From: Lama guanicoe
Taxonomy: Eukaryota
Direction of reading: 5' to 3'
Assembly: GCA_013239625.1 (NCBI GenBank)
Contig: MU053881.1
Coordinates: 1,364,001 to 1,428,000 of the forward strand
Length of the DNA stretch: 64,000 nucleotides
Shown here: positions 700 to 40,116 of the stretch, piece after piece
Numbering within the stretch: the stretch's first letter is position 1
Layout: every line of letters starts with the position of its first letter
Notes under the pieces: model-generated
Database searches by the model: none
Told to the model about the DNA's origin: nothing
The model's input: only the letters and a program-made list of their open reading frames with translations
Program-made: the position numbers and the translations under genes

Positions 700-1700
700 C
701 CCGTGGAGGAGCAGACAAGCCTCACAGGATTAGGGCAGAGCACCGGCGTTTGCCCCCGGTTTCACCCGGCTTCTGCCGCGGACGCCTGGGGCACAGCAGA
801 TCCCAGGGAGGGGCCGCTGGGGCCGCGCAGCCGCGTTGTGAAGGGCCGGGCCCGCCCCCGACGTCACACGGAGCCCCGCCCCCCAGGGAGCTGCGGGAGC
901 GCGCGAGGCTCTGTCACGCAGGCGCGTTCGCGCGGTGTAGGCGGAGCTAGAGGCCGCCGGGGGGGCTTGTAGGGAGACGGCGCTGCCGCCATTTTGTAGG
1001 GTGTTTGTCGCAGCGGCTGGAGAGAGAAGACGGCGGTTTGGCGACATTTCTCGGCCAAAGGGCCTTTTCCTTTCGCGGAGGTAAGGTTTTGGGTGGGGTG
1101 CGCAGGGCTGCCCGGTTTCCCAGTCTTGTAAATGTCGAAGTCAGGTGTCGGAAAAACGGCCTGGTCCGGGGCCTCGGCGAGTGGGGTTCCTTCTGGGCAC
1201 AGCTCTGCTTGTGGCCTTTACAACCTGAAGTTGCCCAAGTGTTGAGGTAGATGTAAAGCCCTGGGGCAGGAAGGCCTCGGCTCTGCCGGCGACCCTGCTC
1301 TGTGGGGCCCCGCCGCTCCCATCCCGGCTGCGGAGGCCGGAGCGAGCGCCTGACGCGGGAGCCGCCGGTGGTTTGTTTTCGTGGATCGAGCCCTCCCCTG
1401 GGGGCCTGGTCTTGGCCGTTTGTGGCATTTGGGGGTTTTCCAGAGTCGGACATCTGGCTCTGTGGGTGCGCCAGAGGCCCTGGCCGGGTGCCCTGGGCGG
1501 GCAGGCGGGGGGTGGGGACCGGGCGTCCGGGAGCTGCGAGTCCAGGTGGTGGAATTTAGCTCGGGCTCGTGGGAGTTAGAATTCTTTGTGCGAACCGGTT
1601 TTTTTCCTAAGGTGGAGCAAAACATTATTGCAGCAGATCTGCGTTTCTGATATTTGTGCCCTGCGCTGTCCTTGATTAGTTAAGTAACCGCGGTATGCTT
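700..1700 (+). promoter_or_regulatory. CLK4: CpG island / promoter of CLK4
   Basis: Dense CpG/GC-rich block. GC boxes (cccgcccc 851-858, ccccgccccc 874-883), CRE-like cgacgtca 859-866, YY1-type GCCGCCATTTTG 985-996. No obvious TATA box. Confidence 0.85.
975..1080 (+). other. CLK4: CLK4 non-coding exon 1 (5' UTR; start approximate)
   Basis: Strong donor GAG|GTAAGG at 1080/1081 inside the CpG island. No ATG in the exon. The next exon begins directly with the initiator ATG. Confidence 0.75.
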
Positions 1701-4121: not shown

Positions 4122-4282
4122 ATGCGGCATTCGAAAAGAACTCACTGCCCTGATTGGGACAGCAGAGAAAGCTGGGGACATGAAAGCTACAGTGGAAGTC
4201 ACAAACGAAAGAGGAGATCCCACAGTAGTACACAAGAGAACAGACATTGTAAACCACATCACCAGTTTAAAGAATCTGATTG
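4122..4282 (+). CDS. CLK4: CLK4 exon 2 (first coding exon, 161 nt; MRHSK...KESD)
   Basis: ttaacag|ATG acceptor; TG|gtaaat donor. Confidence 0.95.
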
Positions 4283-7200
4283 GTAAATTACTCTTGAACT
4301 AGTAGCATTTTAACGCTAATCGTTTTAATGATTTGTCATTAGCTTATATAGCTTTCATCTGTCAGATTGTTCTATAAATCAGCCAACAAATATTCATTCA
4401 GAAAATATTTACTGAGTGCCTTTTATATGCTGGGCACTTTAAATGCTAAGGTTACAGCTGTGATGACAGCAGCAGACAGCAGCATTCCTACCCTATGTAA
4501 CTGTCTGGGAGCCTCAGGAGACAGTTGATTGAGTCTCAGCTGCCAGTGATGTAGTTAGAGGACATGAGACACGGGCAAAGTCAAGTGGTAATAGGACACC
4601 AAGTTGGTGCCTTTAACTTGTATTTAGGAGGGAGATGTGTACATTGGGGCACTTTTTTAGGGTTCCACAGAGGTGAGAGGTAATGAGGGCCCAGGAGAAT
4701 TCATACAGATGAGAAAAAGAGCACGTGCTCTATGAGACTGTTTAAGTGTGTTGGGGATTAGTTGCTTATACTGTATTCTACAGGTCATATTTATAGGCAA
4801 GGCCAGTGGATATGTTTGGGATTTTTAGAAGCTTGGCTATTATAAGAACCATTCCTTTGTGTAGGCAGTAGCCAGTAATGTAGGAAGGGGCCTCAATAAA
4901 AATTTCCAGTAGCATATGTCCTGTTCTGTTGTATGCTTACCAGTGTAAAATTTTGAGGTAATAACATTTATATAGAATTGAAGGAATTCTAAGGTTCCTA
5001 AATGATTAAACAAAGGCTAGGTGAGTAGAGTTTCTTTCATTCTGTCCTCCATTAATTTCCCTTTCTCATTTGTTTTGTTGGTTTTATGTTTTCTCCTTGT
5101 TTTGTGCAGATGTTCCATTGGGACTGTTTGCCAGATTGCTTTCTAAATTAGCCAGCTGGGGTTACTTTAAAAAACAGTATGTAATTTTTTTCCTTCTCCA
5201 TGATAAAACAGACTTGTTCTGCAGAACAGTGAGCTTGTTGGCAGTCAGTGCAGACTACTCATTCTTCATCACACACTGTCATGTGCAGGGAAGAGGAAGA
5301 ATCTATGCCAGGCTTTCAGTGACCTGAGCTAATTAATGTACTATAGAAAAATATCTGTACCCTGTATTAAAATAAATGCAAAATACTGTAAGCCTTAACA
5401 TCATAGTTATAATCACTCATGGGCTTATGCATTGTGTATGTAGAAAGGAAGTGATATAAGTGATGAACAGTTCATTCATGTTCATGATTAACTGCATAAG
5501 CAATACTGAGTCAGTCCAACAACCACTAGACCAACAGTTTCTTTTTTGACATTGGCACCAGAGATGTCTGGGGATAATTGCTCTCCATAATATGAAGCAG
5601 TCTCATAGTCTTTCAAGATTCAAAACTTTACAAGAGTGTTTTTTATAAAATTACTGAAAAAAATGAAAAATACAGAAACACATAAGGAAGATAATCTTGA
5701 AAGGATGCTAGTCCTCCATTATTCGGATGTAAAATTATTTCTGATTATTTTCTTCTGAAAATATCTTTGTTTATAAATCTTTGCCTCTGATTATTTCCTG
5801 AAAATAGATTCTGAGGAGGGGCAGTTTCAAGTTAAAGAGTGTGAACTTTTACAAAGCCCTTGCTACATATTCACGTATTTTTCTAGAAAGTTTGTACCAA
5901 GTTACAGTCCTACAGCATACGCATTCATGCTCTCACAAGTCTTGGTTATTTTGAAATGCCAAGAATAGTGTTTTGTTTTAATTTGAATTTTAAAATTTTT
6001 ACTGAACTTGTTTATATATTGACCACTTGAACATTATTTTTGTATTCTTAGCCCATTTTTCTATTAAAGTGTATTTTTTTAAACTAGTTTATAAGCACTT
6101 TTATTGTATATGAGTTATCTTAACCTTTTTTCATATATATATTGTAGTGTCTTTTGTGATTTGTCTTCCGGTAGTAAGTAGCCTATGAGTTGCTCCCTTC
6201 CTACAGGCTTAATTACTTCTGCAAAGGAAGACCGATGTGGCTATGAATGCTGTTTTTATATCCTGAAACATCTTCCTGTAACACAGAGTATCAAGCCTTA
6301 AACCAGTGATTCTCAAACTTTAGTGTGAATAGAATCACCTTGGAGTTATGCTTGAAATGCATGTTACCAGATCATTCAGTGAGTCTGACACTGTTGATAA
6401 ACAGACCACCCTTTCAGAAACACTATTTTAAGCTCTTTAGTCTGGCATACAAGATTTTGGATGATCTGTTCCGCCCCCTGTTTGTCTCTGTTCCCCTATG
6501 TGAAAGTTGCTCTTGCTGAAATTGTCTACTCATTGTTTCCCCATAACGTGTAGACAAGCCCATCTCTGAGCCCTTGTGGCTGAAAGTGCTCTGTAAATGT
6601 GGAAGAAGGTAATGTGCCATTTTTATCCCCTGGCATTTCTTCTGCTTTCCACTTTGTCCAAATCTTGACCCCCCTTTGAGATGCAACTCTTCTTTTTCAT
6701 GAAATCTTCCCTAACTATTTTAAGCATTTTGAATTTTTCTCTCTCTCTTACCCTAAGCACTCATACACAACCTTTTGGCATTTCGTGCATTGTTGAGTTT
6801 TGTTTCGTGTTTATGTTCATTATTTGTTGGCAGGGATTTTGCCTTATATATATTTTTTATCTTCCACAGGACCTGTGTGGAAATTAAAACGAATGCTCAT
6901 AACCTCATTAGTCTTGGCTATTTTGAATGACTACAGTGAAATCTTCACTGGACAGTCAGTGAATATTTGTAGAAATTAAGTCAATTTGTTCACCCTGCTC
7001 ACTCTGTCCATATAGCCTTTACAATTCTGTAGACTTCGTTTGTATAATCTCTGAGCCTTGGTTGTAGATTGAAGAGGTCCTCGTCTTTTTAGTTTATCCT
7101 CATGGTATTACTTCACCCCATATTCATTATTCTATGGATTGTTTATGAATTATCAGCAGATCTAATTTCACGCACTATTCCAGCTAAAGATTATTAGGGA

Positions 7201-10200
7201 TAGTTTTTCCTGATAGATTTTGGACTTTTATCAGAAGGATGCCTTACAGAATGAAACAGGATGCCCTTAAGAGTATGGTAATTTCTAGCTTGATGTATCG
7301 TGGACCTCTCCCTTACCGTTCCAAGCAGCTGATGAGATCCCTGACCGAGACCCAGGTCCTACCCTGATATCCTGAGCTGTTTCTCCAATTGCTAGAGTGT
7401 AAGGCTGACACTGGGAAAGGGGGGTTTCTGCATCTCCCCAGCCTGGATTTGATGCCAGTTCTGTTGAGTAGCAGTCTTAGAAATGCTTCTCCTTTATTTC
7501 TGCCTAAACCAGCCCCCTGGGAAAAAGAACAACAGCATATTCTGGGGAAAAGGAAGGTTGGTGAGGGCTATCTAGTCAACATCTGTCACTCCATTGCTTG
7601 TCAGGATTATTTTAGCTGATGTGTCTGACTGGGCAGGTGTCCCCTCTCTCCCTCAGTGCTCCATGTGCATCCCTCTTGAAGCTTCGCACTCTGTCGAAGA
7701 GGACACTCATCCCAGGTAGAGAGGGGGACGGGAAACTGGGCAAATTGAATCTATGTCTTTTTCTTTCCATCAGATCAAAGCTAAACTGGGATCCATTGAC
7801 TTCCTGAGGTCCATGACCTCTGAAATCCCTTGTTTTTGTTATGTATTTGTGCGTTTCTTAGGGAAGAGGGCCCATATCTTTTATCAGATTTTGAAAGGGG
7901 TCCGTAGATTCAGAAGTTAAGCACATGGCACCAGTTAATGCTGTTTTCCGTGAATTCTTGTGTATTTCACGAGCAGGAATGACAGGAAATCCGAAATGCA
8001 AAGGGAAGTTGGGGGTGGGTAATCCTAGACAAGCCATTACAAGATCCTTTTCTCATTTGAGGGTGGTATGTTTTAGATGTCTTTGGCACATGAAGCAACC
8101 ATCAAAAGCTGTGTTGTCTATTCTCAAAGAGGAGTACAGGAAGCTAGAAATACAAAGAGATGGGGAGATGGGATAGGTAGTATGTGTCATAAAAGTGGCA
8201 CAGAGGAGTTAGAATGTGCTCTCCCACCACGGCAAACCATTTTCCTTCTAGGGATCTCAAATTTACTCATCTAAAATGAAAAGGCTGAAGTATATTTAAG
8301 ATTCCTTTTAGCTCTGATACACCTTTCATGAAATAGTTCTCTGTGTGCCAGGGATATCTAAAATTCACTTAACATTAAGAGAGAAAGGAATTCTGTTTTG
8401 CCTGCCTCAGATTATGTGTGGCTCTGAGAAAAGAAAGCTTAGCTACAGGTGCATATATCAAAAGACTGATGAATTTCAGAAGAGCAGTTTTGTGAATTTT
8501 TGGTCTTAACTTTCTCCAGAAGGTAAAGGGACATTTAATCAAGTAAACACAGTACAATTGAATGATACGGCTCAAGCTTTGTTCCTTGATAGCAGCATAT
8601 ATAATAGAGATATAAAAACCCATTTGCTTATTGTTTAAAGTAAAATTATTTCTTAAGTTTTGTGATTTAAGTATAAATTCTAATTCATCAATTTGTCTTT
8701 TTTTCTTTTATTGAGTTAGCTGTTTAAACCAGGAATTCTTGAGAGAATGTTTTGTTTTAACCACATCATTCTAGAATGAAGAGAATAATTTTAAATCCTT
8801 TAATGTGTTTGCAGTCATTACTTAGAAGCAAGGTCCTTGAATGAGAGAGATTATCGGGACCGGAGATACATTGATGAATATAGAAATGACTACTGCGAAA
8901 GATACGTTCCTAGACATTATCACAGAGACATTGAAAGCAGTTATCGAATCCACTGCAGTAAGTCTTCAGTCCGAAGCAGGAGAAGCAGTCCTAAAAGGAA
9001 GCGTAATAGGCACTGTTCAAGTCATCAGTCACGTTCGGTATGATTGATTGGTTTTTATTTTGGGTGGATACGTATTTGTGTGAAAAAGCACTTACTGAGC
9101 TGATAAGTTTGGAAAGTTTATATATATAATACTATTTGAATATAGTTGTGTTTATATTACTTGAGTCCTTAAAGGAAACTTCCAAATTCTTATGACTAAT
9201 CTGTGTTTATTAGCTAGCCCTCATTTGCCCATATTTACTCATTTTCTGCAGAGCAGATTATGAATCCCTTGATTTCAATATTAAAAATATTTTAATGTTT
9301 TATAATATAATCTTATGAAAAGATGAAGCACCCGTCTTTTCTTTCATTTTAAACTTTTTTTACTTTAAAAGAAAGATGTTTCCTAATACTTGGAAACATA
9401 GAAAGTTGCACTGGTGGATCCATACCCTGTGTATAGCACAGTGCCACAGCACAGTGCATCATTTTCTGCAGCTGGTTCCACTGGGATTCTGAACATGGGT
9501 GCTGAGTGGGAAATGTGTTGTCCAGAGAGCCTGCCCTTTTTTTACACGCATGCATCGATCACCTGTTTGATTAATAAACTATGAATTACTGTTTTCCTCT
9601 CAAGTTTTCTTCAGTAGAACTAGTTCTGATTAGATTGAACGTTGAAATTAACTAGCTTTTATTTTCCCCTTTTAATCATGTATGTTTTAAAGTATTGCTA
9701 AATGAACGATTTGAACTAATCTTGACATTTTAAAACATCTTCCTGACAAAGTAGACATCCCAGCTCACAGCATGTGCTGTTTTGTAACGAGATTGATAGA
9801 TCATGACATTGCGTTCCTTAAATTTCAGACTTCACTTAAATCAGTATTTTAAAGAGACAATTGTGTTGTTTTTTTTCTATTGCCACTTTAAGTATCTTAT
9901 CTGAAAATCTGTTCCTTGCCATGTTTTTCTTCTGTAACATAAACTGTGCCCTGTGAATTTCTGGGGACTGAATTTGAAATTGCTCCTGCCAACTGTTCGT
10001 GGCCTGGTGCTTATCTGAATGCCTGAATATCTCCCCGCTGAATGAATTGCGTATTCTGCCCTGAATTCACTCTGATATATTGATTGGCTGGACGATCTTG
10101 GTGCTGCCCACTTGCCGTTCCAGAAGAGCCACCGAAGGAAAAGATCCAGGAGTATAGAGGATGATGAGGAGGGTCACCTGATCTGTCAAAGTGGAGACGT

Positions 10201-25544: not shown

Positions 25545-27570
25545 GAAATTTATTGTAGTTGATTTACAATGTTGTGTTAGTTTCAGGTATACAGCAGAGT
25601 GATTCAGTAAAATATATACACATATCACATATTCATATGTATACATATATTCTTTTTCATATTCTTTTACATTATAGGTTATTACAAGATATTCCTGTGC
25701 TATACAGTAGGTCCTTTTTGTATAATAGTAATGTGTATCTGTTAATCCCCAAATCCTAATTTATACGTCCCCCAACCCTTCTTCCCATTTGGTAACCATA
25801 AATTTGTTTCCTATGTCTGTGAGTCTGTTCCTGTTTTGTAAATAAGTACATTTGTATCATTTTTAAGATTTCTCATATAAATGATATATTCATCTTTGAC
25901 TTAGTATGATAATCTCTAGGTCCATCCATATTGCTTCAAAAGACATGATTTCATTCCTTTTTATGGCTGAGAAATATTCGTGTGTGTGTGTGTACACATC
26001 TTTATCCATCTGTTGATGGTCGCTTAGTTTGCTTCCATGTCTTGGCTGTTGTTAATAGTGCTGCTATGAACATTAGGGTACATACATCTTTTCAAATTAG
26101 AGTTTTCATCCTTTCCAGATATAAGCCCAGGAGTGGGATTTCTGGATCATGTGGTAACTCTATTTTCAGTTTTCTAAGAAATCTCCATACTGTTCTCCAT
26201 AACGGCTGCACCAAATTACATTCTCACCAGCAGTGTAGTAGGGTTCCCTTTTCTCCACACCCTCTCCAGCGTTTATCATTTGTAGACTTTTTAATGGTGG
26301 GCATTCTGACCAGTGTGAGGTCAGAATCTCATAGTTTTGATTTGCATTTCTCTAATAATTAGCAATATTGAACATCTTTTCAAATGCCTATTGGCCATCT
26401 GTATATCTTCTTTGGAGAAATGTCTATTTAGGCCCTCTGCCCATTTTTTGATTGGGTTTGGTTTTTTGATACTCAGCTGTATGAGTTGTTTTTATATTTT
26501 GGAAATTAAGCCCTTGTTGGTAGCATCATCTGCAAATATTTTCTCCCAATCAGGTTGTATTTTCATTTTGCTTATGGTTTCCTTTGCTCTGCAAAAGCTT
26601 GTAAGTTTGATTAGGTCCCATGTGTTTACTTTTCTTTAATTTCTTTTGCCTTAGGAGACTGATCTAAGAAAACATTACTATGATTTATGTCAGAGAATGT
26701 TTTGCCTATGTTCTCTTAGTTTTATGGTGTCATGTCCCATGTTTAAGTCTTTAAACCATTTCGAGTTTATTTTAGTGTATGGTGTGAGGGAATGTTCTAA
26801 CTTCACTGATTCACATGCAGCTGTCCAGCTTTCCCAGCACCGCTTGCTAAAAAGACTGTCTTTTCTCCATTATATATTCTTGCCTCCTTTGTTGAAGATT
26901 AATTCACTGTAGGTGTGTGAGTTTATTTCTGGGCTCTCTGTTCTGTTCCATTGATCCATATGTCTGTTTTTTTGCCAATACCCTGCTGTTTTGATTACTG
27001 AAGCTCTGTGGTATTGTCTGAAGTCCAGGAGGGTTACACCTCTAGCTTTGTTTTTTTTTTCCTCAGGATTGCTTTGGCAATTCTGGGTCTTTTGTGATTC
27101 TGTATAAGTTTTAGGATCATTGGTTGTAGTTCCGTGAAAAGTGTCCTGGGTAATCTGATAGGGATCACATTAAGCATGTAGATTGCTTTGGGCAGTGTGG
27201 CCATTTTAACAATATTAACTCTTCCAATCCAAGAGCATGGGATATCTTTCCATTTCTTTGAAGTCTCTTCAGCTTCTTTTATCAGTGTTTTATATTTCTC
27301 AGCATGTAAGTCCTTCACCGCCTTGGTGAGGTTTATTCCTAGGTGTTTTACTTTTTTTGATGCAATTTTAAAAGGGATTGTTTTCTCTCTCTGATATTTC
27401 ATTAAAATGCAGCATATTTCTTTGTGTTAATCTTGCATCTGCTACTTTGGTGAATTCACTTATCAGTTTAGTAATTTTTGTGTGAAGTCTTTTGGTTTTT
27501 CTCTATAGAGTATCATGTCATCTGCATATATCAACAGTTTTGCCTCTTCCCCTCTAACTTGGATACCTTT
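25545..27570 (-). mobile_element. 5'-truncated LINE-1 (ORF2 RT to C-terminus plus 3' UTR), degenerate
   Basis: Minus ORF 27034..27402 ([20 protein letters not shown]...[25 protein letters not shown]) is L1 ORF2. RT motif YADDMI at 27528-27511. L1 3' UTR end near 25545. Confidence 0.93.
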
Positions 27571-28164
27571 TTAAAGAAATCCAGTTCTTTTAAAAGCTGT
27601 TGGATTTATTCTTTAACTAAAGACAATATGGGTAGGTACAGTTTTGAGAATGAATAACAAAATAAGAGCAGGCCTAAATGACCATAGAGTATGTCATTAA
27701 CAGAGAAGTTTAATTTTAAAAGATCTTGTTATTTCTTTTTTATATTTTTCAAATTTAGGACATTTAAATTATTTTGTGTGACCTCACAACAATTGCACAC
27801 ACGAGAACAATGTGAGCTTTGTGACGATGCTTGCCTGGAGAGTCTGAATTTAGACCCTGGGACTGCCCATATAGGTAGACAGATTACATATTCTCTGCAG
27901 CCTCACCTGTGAGTTGAAATACTACCACCTGACTTCCCAGGGGTGGTTGTAAGGGTTAAGTGAGACCATTTATAGGAAGTGGCTGTCATTTTACCATTGT
28001 TTGACTTATTCCCTATATTCTTGATTTATACAGTATCCTATAGTCTACAAATTATATTCTTATACTTCTGGTTTTAGTCCTAGAGGAACCATATGAAATG
28101 AGCACAAATAGATATTGCCTCTCTTTTAATGTTACCACCTTCCATCTTCTTCCATCCTTTTAAC

Positions 28165-30790
28165 TTCTTTTGTCTATGAAGTATTTTATGTACGAAGTGT
28201 ATAGTTGAGTGTTGCATTTTTATCTAATTTTTGCCTTTTAGTTGTGCTCAGGCCATTTATATTGAATGTGATTATTGATACATTTGGGATTAGATTACCA
28301 TCTTCCTGTTTTCTGTTTTTTCCATTTGTTCCTGTTTTCCTCTTTTTCTGCTTTATTTTGGATTAAGTATTATTTTTTCATGATTCTACTTTATACCCTT
28401 TGGTGGTTTATTAGCTATAACTAGTGTGTGTGTGCACATGTTTAGCATTTGCTTTAGGTTTTGTAGTATACATCCTTAACATCCTTTAACTGATATTACA
28501 CCACATACATCACACACAGTAAAAGAATGTTCGTAGCAGCACTATTTACAATAGACAAGACATGGAAGCAACCTAAGTGTCTATCAACAGATAACTTGAT
28601 GAAGTTGTGGTGTGCATATACAATGGAATACTATTCAGCCATAAAAAAGAATGGAATAATGCCATTTGCAGCAACATGGATGGACCTAGAGATTATCATA
28701 CCAAATGAAGTTAAGTCAGAGAAAGACAAATACTGTTTGATATCACTTTTATGTGGAATCCAAAATATGACACAAATGAGCTTATTTAGGAAACAGAAAC
28801 AGACTCAAAGACATAGAAAACAAACTTGTGGTTACCAGGGGGAAGGAGAGAAGAGGGATAAATTAGGAGGTTGGGATTAGTAGATACAAACTACTATATA
28901 TAAAATAGATAAGTTTCCACTGTAGAGCACAGGGAACTATATTCAATAGCTTGTAATAAGAAGTTATGAAAAAGAATGAATATATATAAAGCTGAATCAC
29001 TATGCTGCACACCAGAAACTAATGCAACATTGTAAATCAACTACACTTTAATTAAAAAAAAAAAAGAACCTAACAGTAAACTGCCATTTCTCTCCTCCTA
29101 GGCTTCGTACTACTTTTGCCACACATTTTATTTAGCCATATGTTAAAACTCCACAATACATTGTTATTTTTGCCTTAAGGCATCAATTATCTTTTAAAGA
29201 GATTTAAATTGTAGGAATTCTTACACTGCCCCACATAGTTACCATTTACAGAGCTCTTCAAACCTTTATGTAAACCCATGTTTCCATCTGGTATGGCTTT
29301 CCTCTGCCTGAGTTACTTTCATTAACGTTTTTTGATTGTGGGTCTGCTGGTGAGTCATTCTTTCAGCTTTTGTATGAGAGTATTTATTTACACTTTTTTT
29401 TTTTTGGAGCGATATTTACATTGGGTGTGGGATCTTATACCCAGTTGACACACAATGTTGCTTTCCCCATCTTCTGGGTTGCAGTTTCCAATGAAAAGTC
29501 TGCTGTTATGTTTGTTGCTCTGTACGTGTCTTTTTTCTCTGGTTGCTTTCAAGTCTTTTTTCTTTACCATTCCGTTTAAGCAGCTTGATTGTGGTGTGTT
29601 TTGTGTGATTGTCTTTGTGTTCTTTGTGCTTATGTTCCTTGAAATCCTTGGATCTGTGAGTTTACAGTGTCTATCATTTGGGGATTTTTTTCAGCCATTA
29701 TTTATTCACATTTTTCCTGCCCTCTCCGCTGAGCATTCCTGTTACTCACATGGAATTGCCCCCCAGCTTGCTGATGCTCTGTTCATTTTTTTCAATCTCT
29801 TCCCCTCTGTTTCATTTCAGATAGTTTCTACTGCTTTATTTTCAACTTCATTAGTCTTCCGCAGTATCTAACTTGCCTTTAATCTCATCCAGTTTATTTC
29901 TCACCTCAAACATTGTCATCTTAATCTCTAGATTAGGTTTTTTTTAAACAAAAATCTTCCTCGTCTCTGCTTAACATGTTCGATCTTTTCCTCTTAGCTC
30001 CTTGAACATATGGCATACAGTTATAACTAAATATTTTTGTCTGCTAATTCTGTCACCTCTTTCATTTCTGGGTTGGTTTTGATTGACTGCTTTTTCTTCT
30101 ATTATGGGATATTTTCTTGCTGTTTTTTATGCCTGGTAATTTCGGCTTTTTGTTGTACCTTGTTGAGTATTTTTATATCCTATATACTTGAGCTTTATTT
30201 TGGGACATGATTAAGTTGCGTGAATCAGTTTGATCTAGGGTTTTGGATTTTGTTAGGCAGAACCAGGGCAACCTTTAGTTTAGGTTCATTTAGCCCCACT
30301 CCTGAGGGAAAACTTGAATTTGAATACTCTACTCAGTGCCCTCTGAATGATCAGGTTTTCCATGCTGGTTGGCGGGAAGGAGAGCCACCCCCAGCCTGTG
30401 TGAGCTGCAGGGATGGCTTCCTCTCTGGCAGAGTTGTCATCCTTTCGGGTGGCTCTTTCCCGGCCCCGCCCAGGTGGTTTCCTTACAAAGGTGGCTGTGT
30501 CAGGTGAAGAGTTCTCCTCCCCAGCTCTGCCCCCCTGCAAGTTCTAAGTGCCTTGGCATCCTTGAACTTTCAGCTCTCTTCGCCTTGGGGTGGCTCTGCC
30601 TGCGTTCCCCACCCTGCATGGTCGCCTAGAAAAATCTCTCCAGAGGGAAAAGCTGGGACAATCTTGGCCTCACTTCATTTCTTTCCCCATCTCCCAAGGA
30701 TCACTGTCCTTCATTGCCTGATAACCATTATCTTGAAAGTTGCCATTTCATATAGTTTGTCTTGTTTTCTAGTTTCTGATAGAGTACATC
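28165..30790 (-). mobile_element. Ancient L1 (L1MC/L1ME-like) remnant, interrupted by the 28527-29065 L1
   Basis: T-rich degenerate L1 phrases (gccatttatattgaatgtgattattgat, ttgcagtttccaatgaaaagtctgctg, ggatctgtgagtttacagtgt). Boundaries approximate. Confidence 0.65.
28527..29065 (+). mobile_element. LINE-1 3' fragment (ORF2 C-terminus, 3' UTR, poly-A), nested in an older L1
   Basis: ORF 28527..28880 MFVAALFTIDKTWKQPKC...MEYYSAIKKNGIMPFAATWMDLE; poly-A at ~29054-29065. Confidence 0.92.
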
Positions 30791-33012: not shown

Positions 33013-33123
33013 GAGGGAGGGTATAGCTCAGTGGTAGAGCACATGCTTAGCGTGCACGAGTTCCTGGGTTCACACCCCAGAACCTCCATTAAATAAATAA
33101 ACCTAATAACAACCCCTCCCAAA
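33013..33123 (+). mobile_element. Vic-1-like tRNA-derived SINE
   Basis: gggagggtatagctcagtggtagagc (A box)...ggttcacacc (B box)...attaaataaataaacctaat tail. TSD agatgtttctgg (33001-33012) / agaagtttctgg (33124-33135). Confidence 0.88.
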
Positions 33124-38760: not shown

Positions 38761-38915
38761 GCAGAGCGGGAGGGTAGAGCTCAGTGGTAGAGCACGTGCT
38801 TAGCATGCACAAGGTCCTGGGTTCAATCCCCAGTACCGCCATTAAAATAAATAAATAAACCTAATTACCCCCTGCCACCGAAATAAAAAAACAAGGAAAA
38901 AAACTTTTAAAAAGA
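38761..38915 (+). mobile_element. Vic-1-like tRNA-derived SINE
   Basis: agctcagtggtagagcacgtgcttagcatgcacaaggtcctgggttcaatccccagtacc plus (taaa) tail. TSD cctaatatgatgat (38746-38759) / cctaatatgacgat (38916-38929). Confidence 0.9.
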
Positions 38916-40039: not shown

Positions 40040-40116
40040 TGGAGGTACTGGGGATTGAACCCAGGACTTCCTGCATGCTGAGCACGTGCTCTACCACTGA
40101 GCTGTACCCTCCCCCA
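40040..40116 (-). mobile_element. Vic-1-like SINE, tRNA-related head only (no tail)
   Basis: tggaggtactggggattgaacccagg...tgctctaccactgagctgtaccctcccc. Confidence 0.85.

What the first reader, a model, noticed from the sequence alone, without database searches (positions are those of the whole stretch)
7557..7731. 7SK snRNA retrocopy in CLK4 intron 2 has gained splice sites: a candidate dual-use poison / alternative-start exon
Seen: the segment is colinear with the 5' half of 7SK. Where 7SK (as recalled) reads CCCTCACCGCT the copy reads CCCTCAGTGCT, creating an AG after a clean pyrimidine tract with ctgAc 28 nt upstream. Where 7SK reads CATCCCCGATAGAG the copy reads CATCCCAGGTAGAG, creating CAG|GTAGAG. 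These sites define a 59-nt exon at 7657-7715. Spliced between exons 2 and 3 it shifts the frame to a TAG at 8823-8825, ten junctions upstream of the last exon, so NMD is expected. Established: SR-protein kinases and SR proteins are commonly regulated through poison exons. From memory and unverified, human CLK4 intron 2 also carries an annotated RN7SK pseudogene, which would make the insertion old. Inference: a Pol III regulatory-RNA retrocopy has been exapted as a regulatory exon in a splicing kinase.
Basis: partly seen in the sequence, partly recalled or inferred. Interest (0 to 1): 0.82.

Follow-up and report, generated by a model that had tools for sequence, protein, structure and literature searches.

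The report
Old 7SK-derived optional exon in CLK4
A piece of the 7SK small nuclear RNA, copied into an intron of the splicing-kinase gene CLK4 before placental mammals diverged, has become a strongly conserved optional exon that cuts the protein short when included, probably a self-limiting switch, though its use was not shown in this animal.

Summary
Window 7556-7744 (+) matches Rfam 7SK (76.6 bits, E 5.5e-18). It is a 3'-truncated retrocopy in sense orientation in CLK4 intron 2.

Compared with this genome's own 7SK gene, point changes created AG 7655-56 and CAG|GT 7714-17. None of the 20 best 7SK copies in this genome has either change. The 59-nt exon 7657-7715 shifts the frame to TAG 8823-25, with ten junctions downstream.

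The exon is real in other mammals:
- A deposited mouse "clk4 truncated isoform" (AAT72062.1, 76 aa) is exon 2 + this exon + out-of-frame exon 3.
- Annotated isoforms of tenrec, rabbit, kangaroo rat and pangolin, and spliced unnamed contigs, join it to exon 3.
- Its translation is as conserved as that of coding exon 3. Five derived residues shared across species show a single insertion before the placental radiation.

A second acceptor (exon start 7605) gives a 111-nt frame-keeping form in horse and pangolin.

Not shown: use in this species (read laying failed), NMD, or regulation. The exon is on record; its 7SK origin appeared in no paper I could search. Interest is moderate.

The parts
7556..7744 (+). 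3'-truncated 7SK retropseudogene (5' half of 7SK), in sense orientation in CLK4 intron 2
   Evidence: Rfam RF00100, 76.6 bits, E 5.5e-18. 79.1% identity to the genome's own 7SK gene over gene positions 5-173.
7657..7715 (+). 59-nt frame-shifting cassette exon (poison form)
   Evidence: AG 7655-56 and GT 7716-17 read. The same junctions are seen in mouse AAT72062.1. It is the only AG..GT pair in 15,174 intron bases at its scores.
7605..7715 (+). 111-nt form using the upstream acceptor (AG 7603-04). It keeps the frame, has no stop, and would insert 37 residues.
   Evidence: Horse A0A9L0SNL5 (P0028) and pangolin isoform X1 (P0017) join the exon 2 peptide to this start. Window translation. Acceptor score 4.58.
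7625..7656 (+). Acceptor signals of the 59-nt form: candidate branch point ctgac (A at 7628), a 15-base pyrimidine run at 7640-54, and AG at 7655-56
   Evidence: Read. The AG arose by C-to-G at gene position 102. 0 of 20 other own-genome 7SK copies have it.
7713..7721 (+). Donor CAG|GTAGAG
   Evidence: Created by C160-to-A and A162-to-G relative to the 7SK gene. 0 of 20 other copies have GT here. U1 duplex -8.0 kcal/mol. Spliced to exon 3 in 10 proteins from other sources.
7663..7665 (+). ATG inherited from 7SK, in frame with the CLK4 frame of exon 3
   Evidence: The tenrec X2 model and JGI proteins P0031 and P0032 start here. Weak start context TGCTCCATGT.
7630..7632 (+). TGG where the 7SK gene has TAG. 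This change opens the 111-nt frame.
   Evidence: Gene long frame has a stop here, the copy does not. Gene positions 75-79 read CTAGG, the copy CTGGG.
8823..8825 (+). Premature TAG reached after inclusion of the 59-nt exon
   Evidence: Ten junctions lie downstream.
4122..4282 (+). CLK4 exon 2 (start codon at 4122-24)
   Evidence: tblastn and spliced model.
8815..9037 (+). CLK4 exon 3
   Evidence: Named CLK4 hits at 92-97% identity.

Best explanation
A 3'-truncated 7SK snRNA retrocopy landed in sense orientation in CLK4 intron 2 before the placental orders diverged. A few point changes gave it splice sites:
- C102 to G makes the AG behind 7SK's own pyrimidine-rich stretch.
- C160 to A and A162 to G make CAG|GT.
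- A77 to G removes a stop.

Since then it has been kept almost unchanged as an optional exon.

The main form (59 nt, 7657-7715) shifts the reading frame. The message then encodes only a 76-residue N-terminal fragment, with a stop far upstream of ten exon junctions. That makes it an unproductive isoform, expected to be degraded by nonsense-mediated decay. Including the exon therefore lowers CLK4 kinase output.

By analogy with poison exons of SR-protein genes, I infer that inclusion responds to the phosphorylation state of SR-type splicing activators. These could bind the purine-rich GAAGAGGA stretch that the exon inherited unchanged from 7SK. This would close a feedback loop on CLK activity.

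A weaker upstream acceptor (exon start 7605) gives a 111-nt frame-keeping variant.

Shown: origin, splice-site creation, use as an exon in other mammals, strong conservation, and the frame consequences.

Inferred: use in this species, NMD, and the feedback loop.
For: Origin: Rfam hit and alignment to the genome's own 7SK gene.

The splice sites are derived. 0 of the 20 best own-genome 7SK copies carry the AG or the GT.

Exon use elsewhere:
- Mouse AAT72062.1 'clk4 truncated isoform' ends DSDCAPCASPLKLRTLLKRTLIPVTI. That is the exon 2 end, the canonical-frame reading of the 59-nt exon (the window reads [19 protein letters not shown] at 7658-7714), and then the shifted exon 3.
- 6 of the 20 proteins fetched from the exon 3 search carry residues of this exon directly before the exon 3 peptide. 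They are kangaroo rat X2, rabbit X4, Chinese hamster, Apodemus (5 residues only), pangolin X1 and tenrec X2.
- Two JGI contig proteins (P0031, P0032) run 7SK exon, exon 3, exon 4. Logan protein P0040 joins the exon to exon 3.

Conservation, 7SK-exon peptide against exon 3 peptide, each compared with the window:
- tenrec: 17/17 against 77%
- hamster: 19/19 against 93%
- kangaroo rat: 19/20 against 93%
- rabbit: 18/19 against 95%
- pangolin: 30/36 against 84%
- unnamed P0030: upstream intron flank 22/45, 7SK-derived part 16/16 plus 34/37

Under unconstrained change at 0.2 differences per site, these identities have probabilities of 2e-4 (tenrec), 8e-5 (kangaroo rat, hamster) and 7e-6 (horse).

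Single origin: the 7SK gene would read RSMCVPPEAARSVEEDDHPR in this frame. The copies share the derived residues C, L, S, H and T.

Signals: acceptor 7657 is the best of 1053 intronic AGs, and the pair is unique.

Frame: 76-aa product, with ten junctions after the stop.
Against: - No RNA evidence from this species. The only call that could show junctions failed.
- In one search, 20 runs hold the stretch, but only one is on record as RNA (X14, 0.76 of 37 words).
- All cross-species evidence is at protein level. I saw no orthologous nucleotides, so synonymous sites could not be examined.
- RefSeq 'isoform X' and other genome-derived models can be partly computational. The hamster and Apodemus models look ab initio.
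- 14 of the 20 fetched exon 3 proteins lack the exon. No primate model among the hits uses it. The two Pongo isoforms and the Microcebus isoform use other exons.
- One unnamed group (P0029, P0035; P0038 of the same cluster and length was not read) reads Q where the others have the stop that contains the donor T. So the GT is lost there, while close relatives P0036, P0037 and P0039 keep it.
- NMD and CLK-dependent regulation of this exon are untested. The papers I read place CLK4 autoregulation at exon 4 and introns 3-4 (passages of PMC4281565, PMC5000506, PMC8395096, PMC11346455).
- The horse and pangolin models use the frame-keeping form, so 'poison' may not be the only role.
Confidence: 0.65

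Rival explanations
1. The conserved function is protein-coding. On this view the exon is kept to make CLK4 isoforms. One would be a 37-residue insert in the disordered N-terminal domain (111-nt form). Another would be an N-terminally shortened kinase starting at ATG 7663.
For: - The 111-nt form is stop-free because the 7SK TAG became TGG.
- Pangolin X1 (517 aa) and the horse UniProt entry use acceptor 7605.
- Tenrec X2 and the two JGI proteins start at the ATG.
- All the conservation evidence is at amino-acid level in this very frame.
- The canonical CLK4 ATG has a weak context, C at -3 and C at +4, so leaky scanning is conceivable.
Against: - The only cDNA-named record (mouse) uses the 59-nt frame-shifting form.
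- Acceptor 7605 scores 4.58 against 8.98 for 7657.
- ATG 7663 has T at -3 and T at +4.
- A longest-ORF rule applied to a poison-exon transcript would produce exactly such 'isoform' models.
- A 37-codon open frame is not rare by chance.
Confidence: 0.2
2. The exon is used but has no regulatory role. On this view it is a tolerated by-product of strong accidental splice signals, and NMD clears the product.
For: - No experiment links this exon to regulation. Papers on CLK1/CLK4 autoregulation name only exon 4 and introns 3-4.
- One unnamed lineage has lost the donor T.
- Intron 2 yields several other optional exons in different species.
Against: Splicing noise does not explain a sequence held as constant as the neighbouring coding exon across Afrotheria, Glires and Laurasiatheria. 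Nor does it explain an intron flank that is far less conserved than the element (P0030).
Confidence: 0.1
3. The conservation reflects a non-exon role of the retrocopy, such as a structured intronic RNA or a 7SK-like RNP decoy that still binds 7SK partners.
For: - The 5' 49 nt of the copy (7556-7604), outside both exon forms, also look conserved: 16/16 residues in P0030, with similar frames in P0026 and P0027.
- Infernal still aligns much of the 7SK 5' hairpin.
- Tra2beta CLIP tags fall on 7SK RNA (passage of PMC3240583).
Against: - The fold is no more stable than shuffles: -54.6 kcal/mol, z +0.91, with 162 of 200 shuffles folding at least as well.
- Both GATC stretches of the 7SK 5' hairpin are changed in the copy, to GCTT and GATG. 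I recall these as the HEXIM-binding motifs.
- The 3' half with the terminal hairpin is absent.
- The conserved upstream 49 nt can be explained as the branch point and pyrimidine region of acceptor 7605.
Confidence: 0.04
4. A neutral pseudo-exon: chance splice-site look-alikes in a decaying pseudogene that are never used.
For: Introns hold many AG..GT pairs. 1256 pairs in CLK4's introns reach the scores of the weakest real sites.
Against: - Spliced products exist in mouse and other mammals.
- The pair is the only one at its scores.
- Conservation equals that of exon 3.
Confidence: 0.01

Closest known systems
Mouse 'lammer protein kinase clk4 truncated isoform', GenBank protein AAT72062.1 (P0033)
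   Same: It is the same exon and the same junctions. The exon 2 peptide is followed by the canonical-frame reading of the 59-nt exon, then a stop after three shifted exon 3 codons. It is 76 aa long, the length the window predicts.
   Different: - It comes from another species. It differs at 2 of the 20 residues the exon encodes in that frame.
- The record's name says nothing of 7SK.
- I could not read the paper behind it. García-Sacristán et al. 2005 is a recalled guess (seen only in reference lists) and is not held. Nayler et al. 1997 is not held either.
Conserved poison exons of SR-protein and other splicing-regulator genes, such as the Srsf3 and Srsf5 poison exons named in Boutz et al. 2015 (PMC4281565, passages read). 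The ultraconserved-element work of Lareau 2007 and Ni 2007 is recalled, not read.
   Same: It is a frame-breaking cassette exon in a splicing regulator. It is conserved as strongly as coding sequence and is expected to feed NMD and lower protein output.
   Different: - It derives from a Pol III snRNA retrocopy.
- NMD and autoregulation are untested.
- The gene product is a kinase that does not bind RNA itself, so any feedback must pass through its substrates.
CLK1/CLK4 exon 4 skipping with detained introns 3 and 4 (PMC4281565, PMC5000506, PMC8395096, PMC11346455; passages read)
   Same: It is unproductive splicing of the same gene family, yielding truncated, kinase-less products. It is a plausible target of CLK activity.
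   Different: There a coding exon is skipped and the flanking introns are detained. Here an extra exon in intron 2 is included. None of these papers mentions it in the passages I searched for CLK4.
Exonization of retroposed elements such as Alu and MIR (general knowledge, recalled; reviews appeared only in the listings)
   Same: Splice sites are created by a few point changes in a retroposed sequence sitting in an intron. The pyrimidine-rich stretch of the element serves as the acceptor tract.
   Different: - The source is a single-copy-gene snRNA (7SK), not a SINE.
- The element is in sense orientation.
- The exon predates the placental radiation and is under strong constraint. Most exonized repeats are young and weakly included.
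7SK RNA gene family (Rfam RF00100)
   Same: Sequence, and part of the 5' hairpin alignment, over roughly model positions 1-178.
   Different: It has only the 5' half, at 79% identity, and is intronic. The GATC stretches are changed and there is no 3' hairpin. It is a pseudogene, not a 7SK gene.

Membership tests
7SK RNA (RF00100), functional gene | Covariance-model score above the gathering threshold | tested here: met
   76.6 bits against a threshold of 35.
7SK RNA (RF00100), functional gene | Full length (about 331 nt) with the 3' terminal hairpin and U tail | tested here: not met
   Only about model positions 1-178 align. The rest is bridged as missing. Gene positions 5-173 align.
7SK RNA (RF00100), functional gene | Two GATC stretches in the 5' hairpin (recalled as the HEXIM-binding motifs) | tested here: not met
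   In the alignment, gene GATC at about 42-45 reads GCTT in the copy, and GATC at about 64-67 reads GATG. That these are the binding motifs is recalled.
7SK retropseudogene | Diverged, truncated copy away from the true gene locus | tested here: met
   The true gene lies on another contig (L001, 396 bits). The copy is 79.1% identical and lies in a CLK4 intron. Target-site duplications and promoter elements were not examined.
Exonized retroposed element | Splice sites created by changes after insertion | tested here: met
   The own 7SK gene lacks the AG and the GT. 0 of the 20 best own-genome copies have either.
Exonized retroposed element | Element sequence present in spliced mRNA | tested here: met
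   Met for other mammals: mouse AAT72062.1, six exon 3 models, P0031, P0032 and P0040. Not testable for this species.
Poison (NMD-switch) cassette exon | Inclusion gives a premature stop more than about 50 nt before a downstream exon junction | tested here: met
   TAG 8823-25 lies 212 nt before the exon 3 donor, and ten junctions follow.
Poison (NMD-switch) cassette exon | Conservation comparable with coding exons | tested here: met
   Peptide identities are equal to or above those of exon 3 in 4 of 5 named species, and within 1% in the pangolin. This is protein level only.
Poison (NMD-switch) cassette exon | The isoform is stabilised when NMD is blocked | not testable with these tools
   No expression data could be laid. 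No paper found on this exon.
Poison (NMD-switch) cassette exon | Inclusion is controlled by the gene's own activity (autoregulation) | not testable with these tools
   Inference only. The papers read describe exon 4 and introns 3-4.
Alternative translation-start exon | ATG in frame with the downstream coding sequence | tested here: met
   ATG 7663 plus 53 nt joins exon 3 in the CLK4 frame. The tenrec X2 model starts there.
Alternative translation-start exon | Favourable start context, and transcripts that lack the upstream canonical ATG | tested here: not met
   The context has T at -3 and T at +4. No transcript joining exon 1 to this exon was seen. What lies upstream in the tenrec and JGI sources is unknown.

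The most novel reading that the evidence does not exclude
The exon works because it is 7SK. It kept unchanged the stretches of 7SK that bind SR-type and hnRNP proteins. These include the 12-nt GTCGAAGAGGAC block at 7693-7704. The CLK4 pre-mRNA would then present a 7SK mimic to the same proteins that 7SK snRNP holds.

Inclusion of the poison exon would read out the free, CLK-phosphorylated pool of these proteins. That would couple CLK4 kinase dosage to the 7SK/P-TEFb transcription-control system. It would be a ready-made sensor captured by retroposition about 100 million years ago.
Probability: 0.12. Interest if true: 0.8.

Novelty: new member of a known kind. Interest (0 to 1): 0.5.

Why it matters
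CLK1 and CLK4 set the phosphorylation of SR proteins. They are studied as stress and body-temperature sensors and as drug targets. Their known self-regulation sits at exon 4 and introns 3-4.

A second unproductive-splicing switch in intron 2, frozen since before placental mammals diverged, would add a control point. It could be tested directly with antisense blocking, CLK inhibitors or temperature shifts.

It is also a clear case of a Pol III regulatory-RNA retrocopy being turned into a constrained exon by three or four point changes. That is rare among exonized repeats, most of which are young and weakly used.

The value is limited in two ways. The exon itself is already on record: a mouse truncated isoform and RefSeq models. 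And no function has been shown.

Tried and rejected
- **Read laying.** No junction data were obtained.
- **Sequencing runs.** 20 runs hold the 401-nt stretch, but only X14 is on record as RNA. With shares of 0.76-1.00 the intron flanks are held too. Unlaid, this says nothing about splicing.
- **Orthologous DNA, all empty.** I tried search for related loci with P0032 in metagenome contigs (179 pattern matches, none confirmed). I also ran the DNA search with a 22-nt stretch of the exon in metagenome contigs (0 matches) and in genome contigs (0 matches). So there is no nucleotide-level cross-species alignment.
- **RNA structure.** The minimum-energy fold of 7550-7730 is -54.6 kcal/mol, z +0.91, and 162 of 200 shuffles fold at least as well. 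I rejected a structure-gated switch as unsupported. The fold does pair the acceptor's pyrimidine tract with the G-rich stretch after the donor.
- **Earlier findings of the scan.** By place, by sequence and by words, nothing bears on this.
- **Literature.**
  - CLK4 + poison exon: 22 papers.
  - 7SK + pseudogene + exonization: 11.
  - CLK4 + RN7SKP: 0.
  - CLK4 + 7SK: 7.
  - CLK4 + ultraconserved: 18.
  - 7SK + poison exon: 13.
  - snRNA pseudogene + exonization: 5.
  - Clk4 + truncated + LAMMER: 7.
  - clk4 + erythroleukemia + truncated: 4.
  - 7SK-derived + exon: 1.
  - By listings and the passages I read, none describes this exon or its origin.
- **Papers not held.** Nayler 1997 and García-Sacristán 2005 may describe the mouse truncated isoform.
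- **First script attempts.**
- **Neutral pseudo-exon.** Rejected; see the rivals.
Full report
**1. What is there**

Rfam's 7SK model matches window 7556-7744 on the + strand at 76.6 bits (threshold 35), E 5.5e-18. The alignment covers about the first 178 of 331 model positions; the rest is missing.

The window's own assembly is held. Its best 7SK locus, L001:1501-1833 at 396 bits, is presumably the true gene. Aligned to that gene, the copy spans gene positions 5-173 with 34 mismatches in 163 aligned bases, 79.1% identity.

The host gene is CLK4. tblastn with a full-length CLK4 (P0013) and a splice-aware refinement give 12 coding exons, all GT-AG, encoding 481 residues. Exon 2 is 4122-4282 and exon 3 is 8815-9037. 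Hits to the exon 3 peptide are named CLK4 in many mammals. The copy lies in sense orientation in intron 2.

**2.

- The gene reads CACCGC where the copy reads CAGTGC, giving AG at 7655-56.
- The gene reads CCCCGATAGAG where the copy reads CCCAGGTAGAG, giving CAG|GT with GT at 7716-17.
- The 59-nt exon 7657-7715, placed between exons 2 and 3, gives a 76-residue frame that ends at TAG 8823-25. Ten exon junctions lie downstream.
- None of the 20 best-scoring 7SK copies of this genome, the gene included, has the AG or the GT. The sites therefore arose in this copy. Those 20 are the best-scoring and least diverged copies (83-100% identical), so they are not a random sample.

I scored splice signals with a simple weight matrix built from recalled human splice-site frequencies.

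- Acceptor 7657 is the best of 1053 intronic AGs in CLK4 introns 2-12: 8.98, against -2.2 to 9.6 for the real acceptors.
- The donor is matched or beaten by 39 of 986 intronic GTs. It exceeds 6 of the 11 real CLK4 donors.
- The pair is the only one in 15,174 intron bases that reaches both scores.

**3. The exon is real in other mammals**

A search with the exon 2 peptide among short proteins gave 3 hits. One is GenBank AAT72062.1, 'lammer protein kinase clk4 truncated isoform [Mus musculus]', 76 aa. Its tail, DSDCAPCASPLKLRTLLKRTLIPVTI, has three parts:

- the end of exon 2;
- the canonical-frame reading of the 59-nt exon, where window 7658-7714 reads [19 protein letters not shown];
- three shifted exon 3 codons and a stop.

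A search with the exon 3 peptide among longer proteins gave 25 hits, of which I fetched 20. The five left unfetched, P0021-P0025, are weaker hits named CLK1, 'dual-specificity kinase' or 'hypothetical protein' (opossum, Tasmanian devil, platypus, sheep, deer).

- Six of the 20 carry residues of this exon directly before the exon 3 peptide. They are kangaroo rat X2, rabbit X4, Chinese hamster, Apodemus (five residues only), Chinese pangolin X1 and tenrec X2.
- Fourteen do not.

A search with the translation of window 7576-7716 gave 10 hits.

- Two JGI contig proteins (P0031, P0032) run from the exon into exon 3 and on into exon 4. These are spliced products.
- A horse UniProt entry (P0028) also appeared.
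- Four proteins of unnamed Logan contigs read through the copy unspliced.
- In the cluster of one of these, P0040 joins the exon to exon 3 while still carrying the upstream intron.

Weight of this evidence: the mouse record and the spliced contigs count most. RefSeq 'isoform X' models usually rest on transcript alignments (recalled). The hamster and Apodemus models look ab initio.

**4. Two acceptors**

The mouse product joins exon 2 to the 7657-type start. The kangaroo rat model joins another upstream exon to the same start.

Horse and pangolin join exon 2 to a start that corresponds to window 7605 (AG 7603-04). The resulting 111-nt exon keeps the frame and has no stop, because the TAG of 7SK at gene positions 76-78 is TGG in the copy. 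This acceptor scores 4.58; 23 of 1053 intronic AGs score as high.

**5. Conservation and age**

In the frame used by the models, the 7SK gene would read RSMCVPPEAARSVEEDDHPR, while the window reads [20 protein letters not shown]. The derived residues C, L, S, H and T are shared wherever the stretch is covered: by tenrec, kangaroo rat, hamster, rabbit, pangolin and horse, and by all the unnamed copies read. The sixth change, V to I, lies at a CpG and is not shared by horse or pangolin.

This indicates one insertion before Afrotheria, Euarchontoglires and Laurasiatheria split, not repeated insertions of an invariant gene.

Identity to the window of the exon's peptide, compared with the exon 3 peptide:

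| Species | 7SK-exon peptide | Exon 3 peptide |
|---|---|---|
| tenrec | 17/17 | 77% |
| hamster | 19/19 | 93% |
| kangaroo rat | 19/20 | 93% |
| rabbit | 18/19 | 95% |
| pangolin | 30/36 | 84% |
| horse | 34/37 | not covered |

- In unnamed P0030, the 45 residues of upstream intron flank are 22/45 identical. The 7SK-derived part is 16/16 plus 34/37.
- For unconstrained change at 0.2 differences per site, the identities have probabilities of 2e-4 (tenrec), 8e-5 (kangaroo rat, hamster) and 7e-6 (horse, counted as 34 of 36). At 0.1 differences per site they are about 1e-2 to 2e-2.
- That neutral divergence between placental orders is 0.2 or more per site is recalled, not measured here.

Limits: all of this is protein-level evidence, and I could obtain no orthologous DNA.

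One point stands against universal retention. The unnamed group P0029 and P0035 (with P0038 of the same cluster and length, not read) reads Q where the others have the stop that contains the donor's T. Its close relatives P0036, P0037 and P0039 keep the stop.

No primate model among the hits uses the exon. Pongo isoform 3 and Microcebus X2 use other intron 2 exons, and Pongo isoform 5 has exon 2 joined directly to exon 3.

**6. Mechanism**

- Shown: the origin, the creation of the sites, use as an exon elsewhere, the constraint, and the frame consequences.
- Inferred: inclusion of the 59-nt form yields an NMD substrate and so lowers CLK4 output.
- Also inferred: inclusion depends on SR-type activators whose activity CLKs set. 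These may act through the purine-rich GAAGAGGA stretch. It lies in a 12-nt block (7693-7704) that is unchanged from 7SK.
- A passage of PMC3240583 reports Tra2beta CLIP tags on 7SK RNA. This is a lead, not a test.
- The alternative-start idea rests on the tenrec model and the two JGI proteins, which begin at ATG 7663. That context is weak. A longest-ORF rule applied to a poison-exon transcript would give the same models.

**7. What could not be done**

The run search found 20 holders, only one of them on record as RNA, and none was laid.

**8. Known or new**

The exon is on record through the mouse truncated isoform and the RefSeq and Ensembl-derived models.

In ten full-text searches I found no paper that describes this exon, its 7SK origin, or an intron 2 switch in CLK4. 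This rests on the listings and on passages read in twelve papers:

- PMC4281565, PMC8395096, PMC5000506, PMC7261177
- 10.1101/2025.06.15.659434, PMC11346455, PMC3240583, PMC10228655
- PMC10082069, PMC7593917, 10.1101/2024.06.21.599975, PMC10952393

The passages on CLK4 regulation deal with exon 4 and introns 3-4. Two older papers that may describe the mouse isoform are not held. Genome-browser repeat tracks were not available to me. Supplements were not consulted.

**9. Verdict**

The exaptation reading is supported. The regulatory and NMD readings are plausible but unshown. It is a new member of a known kind, of moderate interest.

Noticed in passing
window 5110-5176 (+): This is a second optional exon in CLK4 intron 2, 67 nt long, bounded by cag|ATGTTCC and AAACA|gtatgt. 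Acceptor score 7.73, donor score -0.51. After exon 2 the canonical frame reads TG+A, a stop at the junction, so it is also a poison exon. Its peptide [22 protein letters not shown] appears in models of a bat, a desman, rabbit, hamster and mouse lemur, 20-21 of 22 residues identical where mapped.
   Followed up: partly
window about 5912-5959 and about 6850-6970 (+): Further species-specific optional exons seem to lie in intron 2. The middle exon of kangaroo rat X2 maps at 5912-5959 (11 of 16 residues). The tail of Pongo 'CLK4 isoform 3' (P0034) resembles the window ORFs 6757..6930 and 6797..6979. That second match is by eye only.
   Followed up: no
window 4122-4282 (+): The canonical CLK4 start codon has a weak context, C at -3 and C at +4. 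Exon 2 is also open in a second frame from an internal ATG (MKATVEV...). Several RefSeq models use that frame to read through exon 2a into the CLK4 frame (P0006, P0012). Whether this is real leaky-scanning biology or an annotation by-product is open.
   Followed up: no
window 7556-7729 against placental orthologues: The copy differs from 7SK at 21% of sites, yet is almost frozen among placental orders. About 10 of the 34 mismatches are CpG transitions by my reading. Most of the divergence therefore predates the placental radiation. Either the insertion is much older than that radiation and could be sought in marsupials and monotremes, or it changed quickly at first.
   Followed up: no
window 7640-7654 with 7716-7729: In the minimum-energy fold, the acceptor's pyrimidine tract pairs with the G-rich stretch just after the donor, looping out the 59-nt exon. 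The fold is not more stable than shuffles, z +0.91.
   Followed up: partly
window 33017-33088 (+), 38770-38841 (+), 40040-40111 (-): Three tRNA-model hits at 39-50 bits. The two whose alignments were shown (38770-38841 and 40040-40111) have near-identical sequence. They look like heads of a tRNA-derived SINE family rather than tRNA genes; that reading is recalled, not tested.
   Followed up: no
window about 25900-29900, both strands: Long open frames here, for example 27034..27426 on the minus strand, look like LINE-1 ORF2 fragments. This is by recall from the translations and was not tested.
   Followed up: no
window 906-942: This short part of the CLK4 promoter/CpG-island region tripped the read laying filter. 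The tool says this is no evidence of anything.
   Followed up: no
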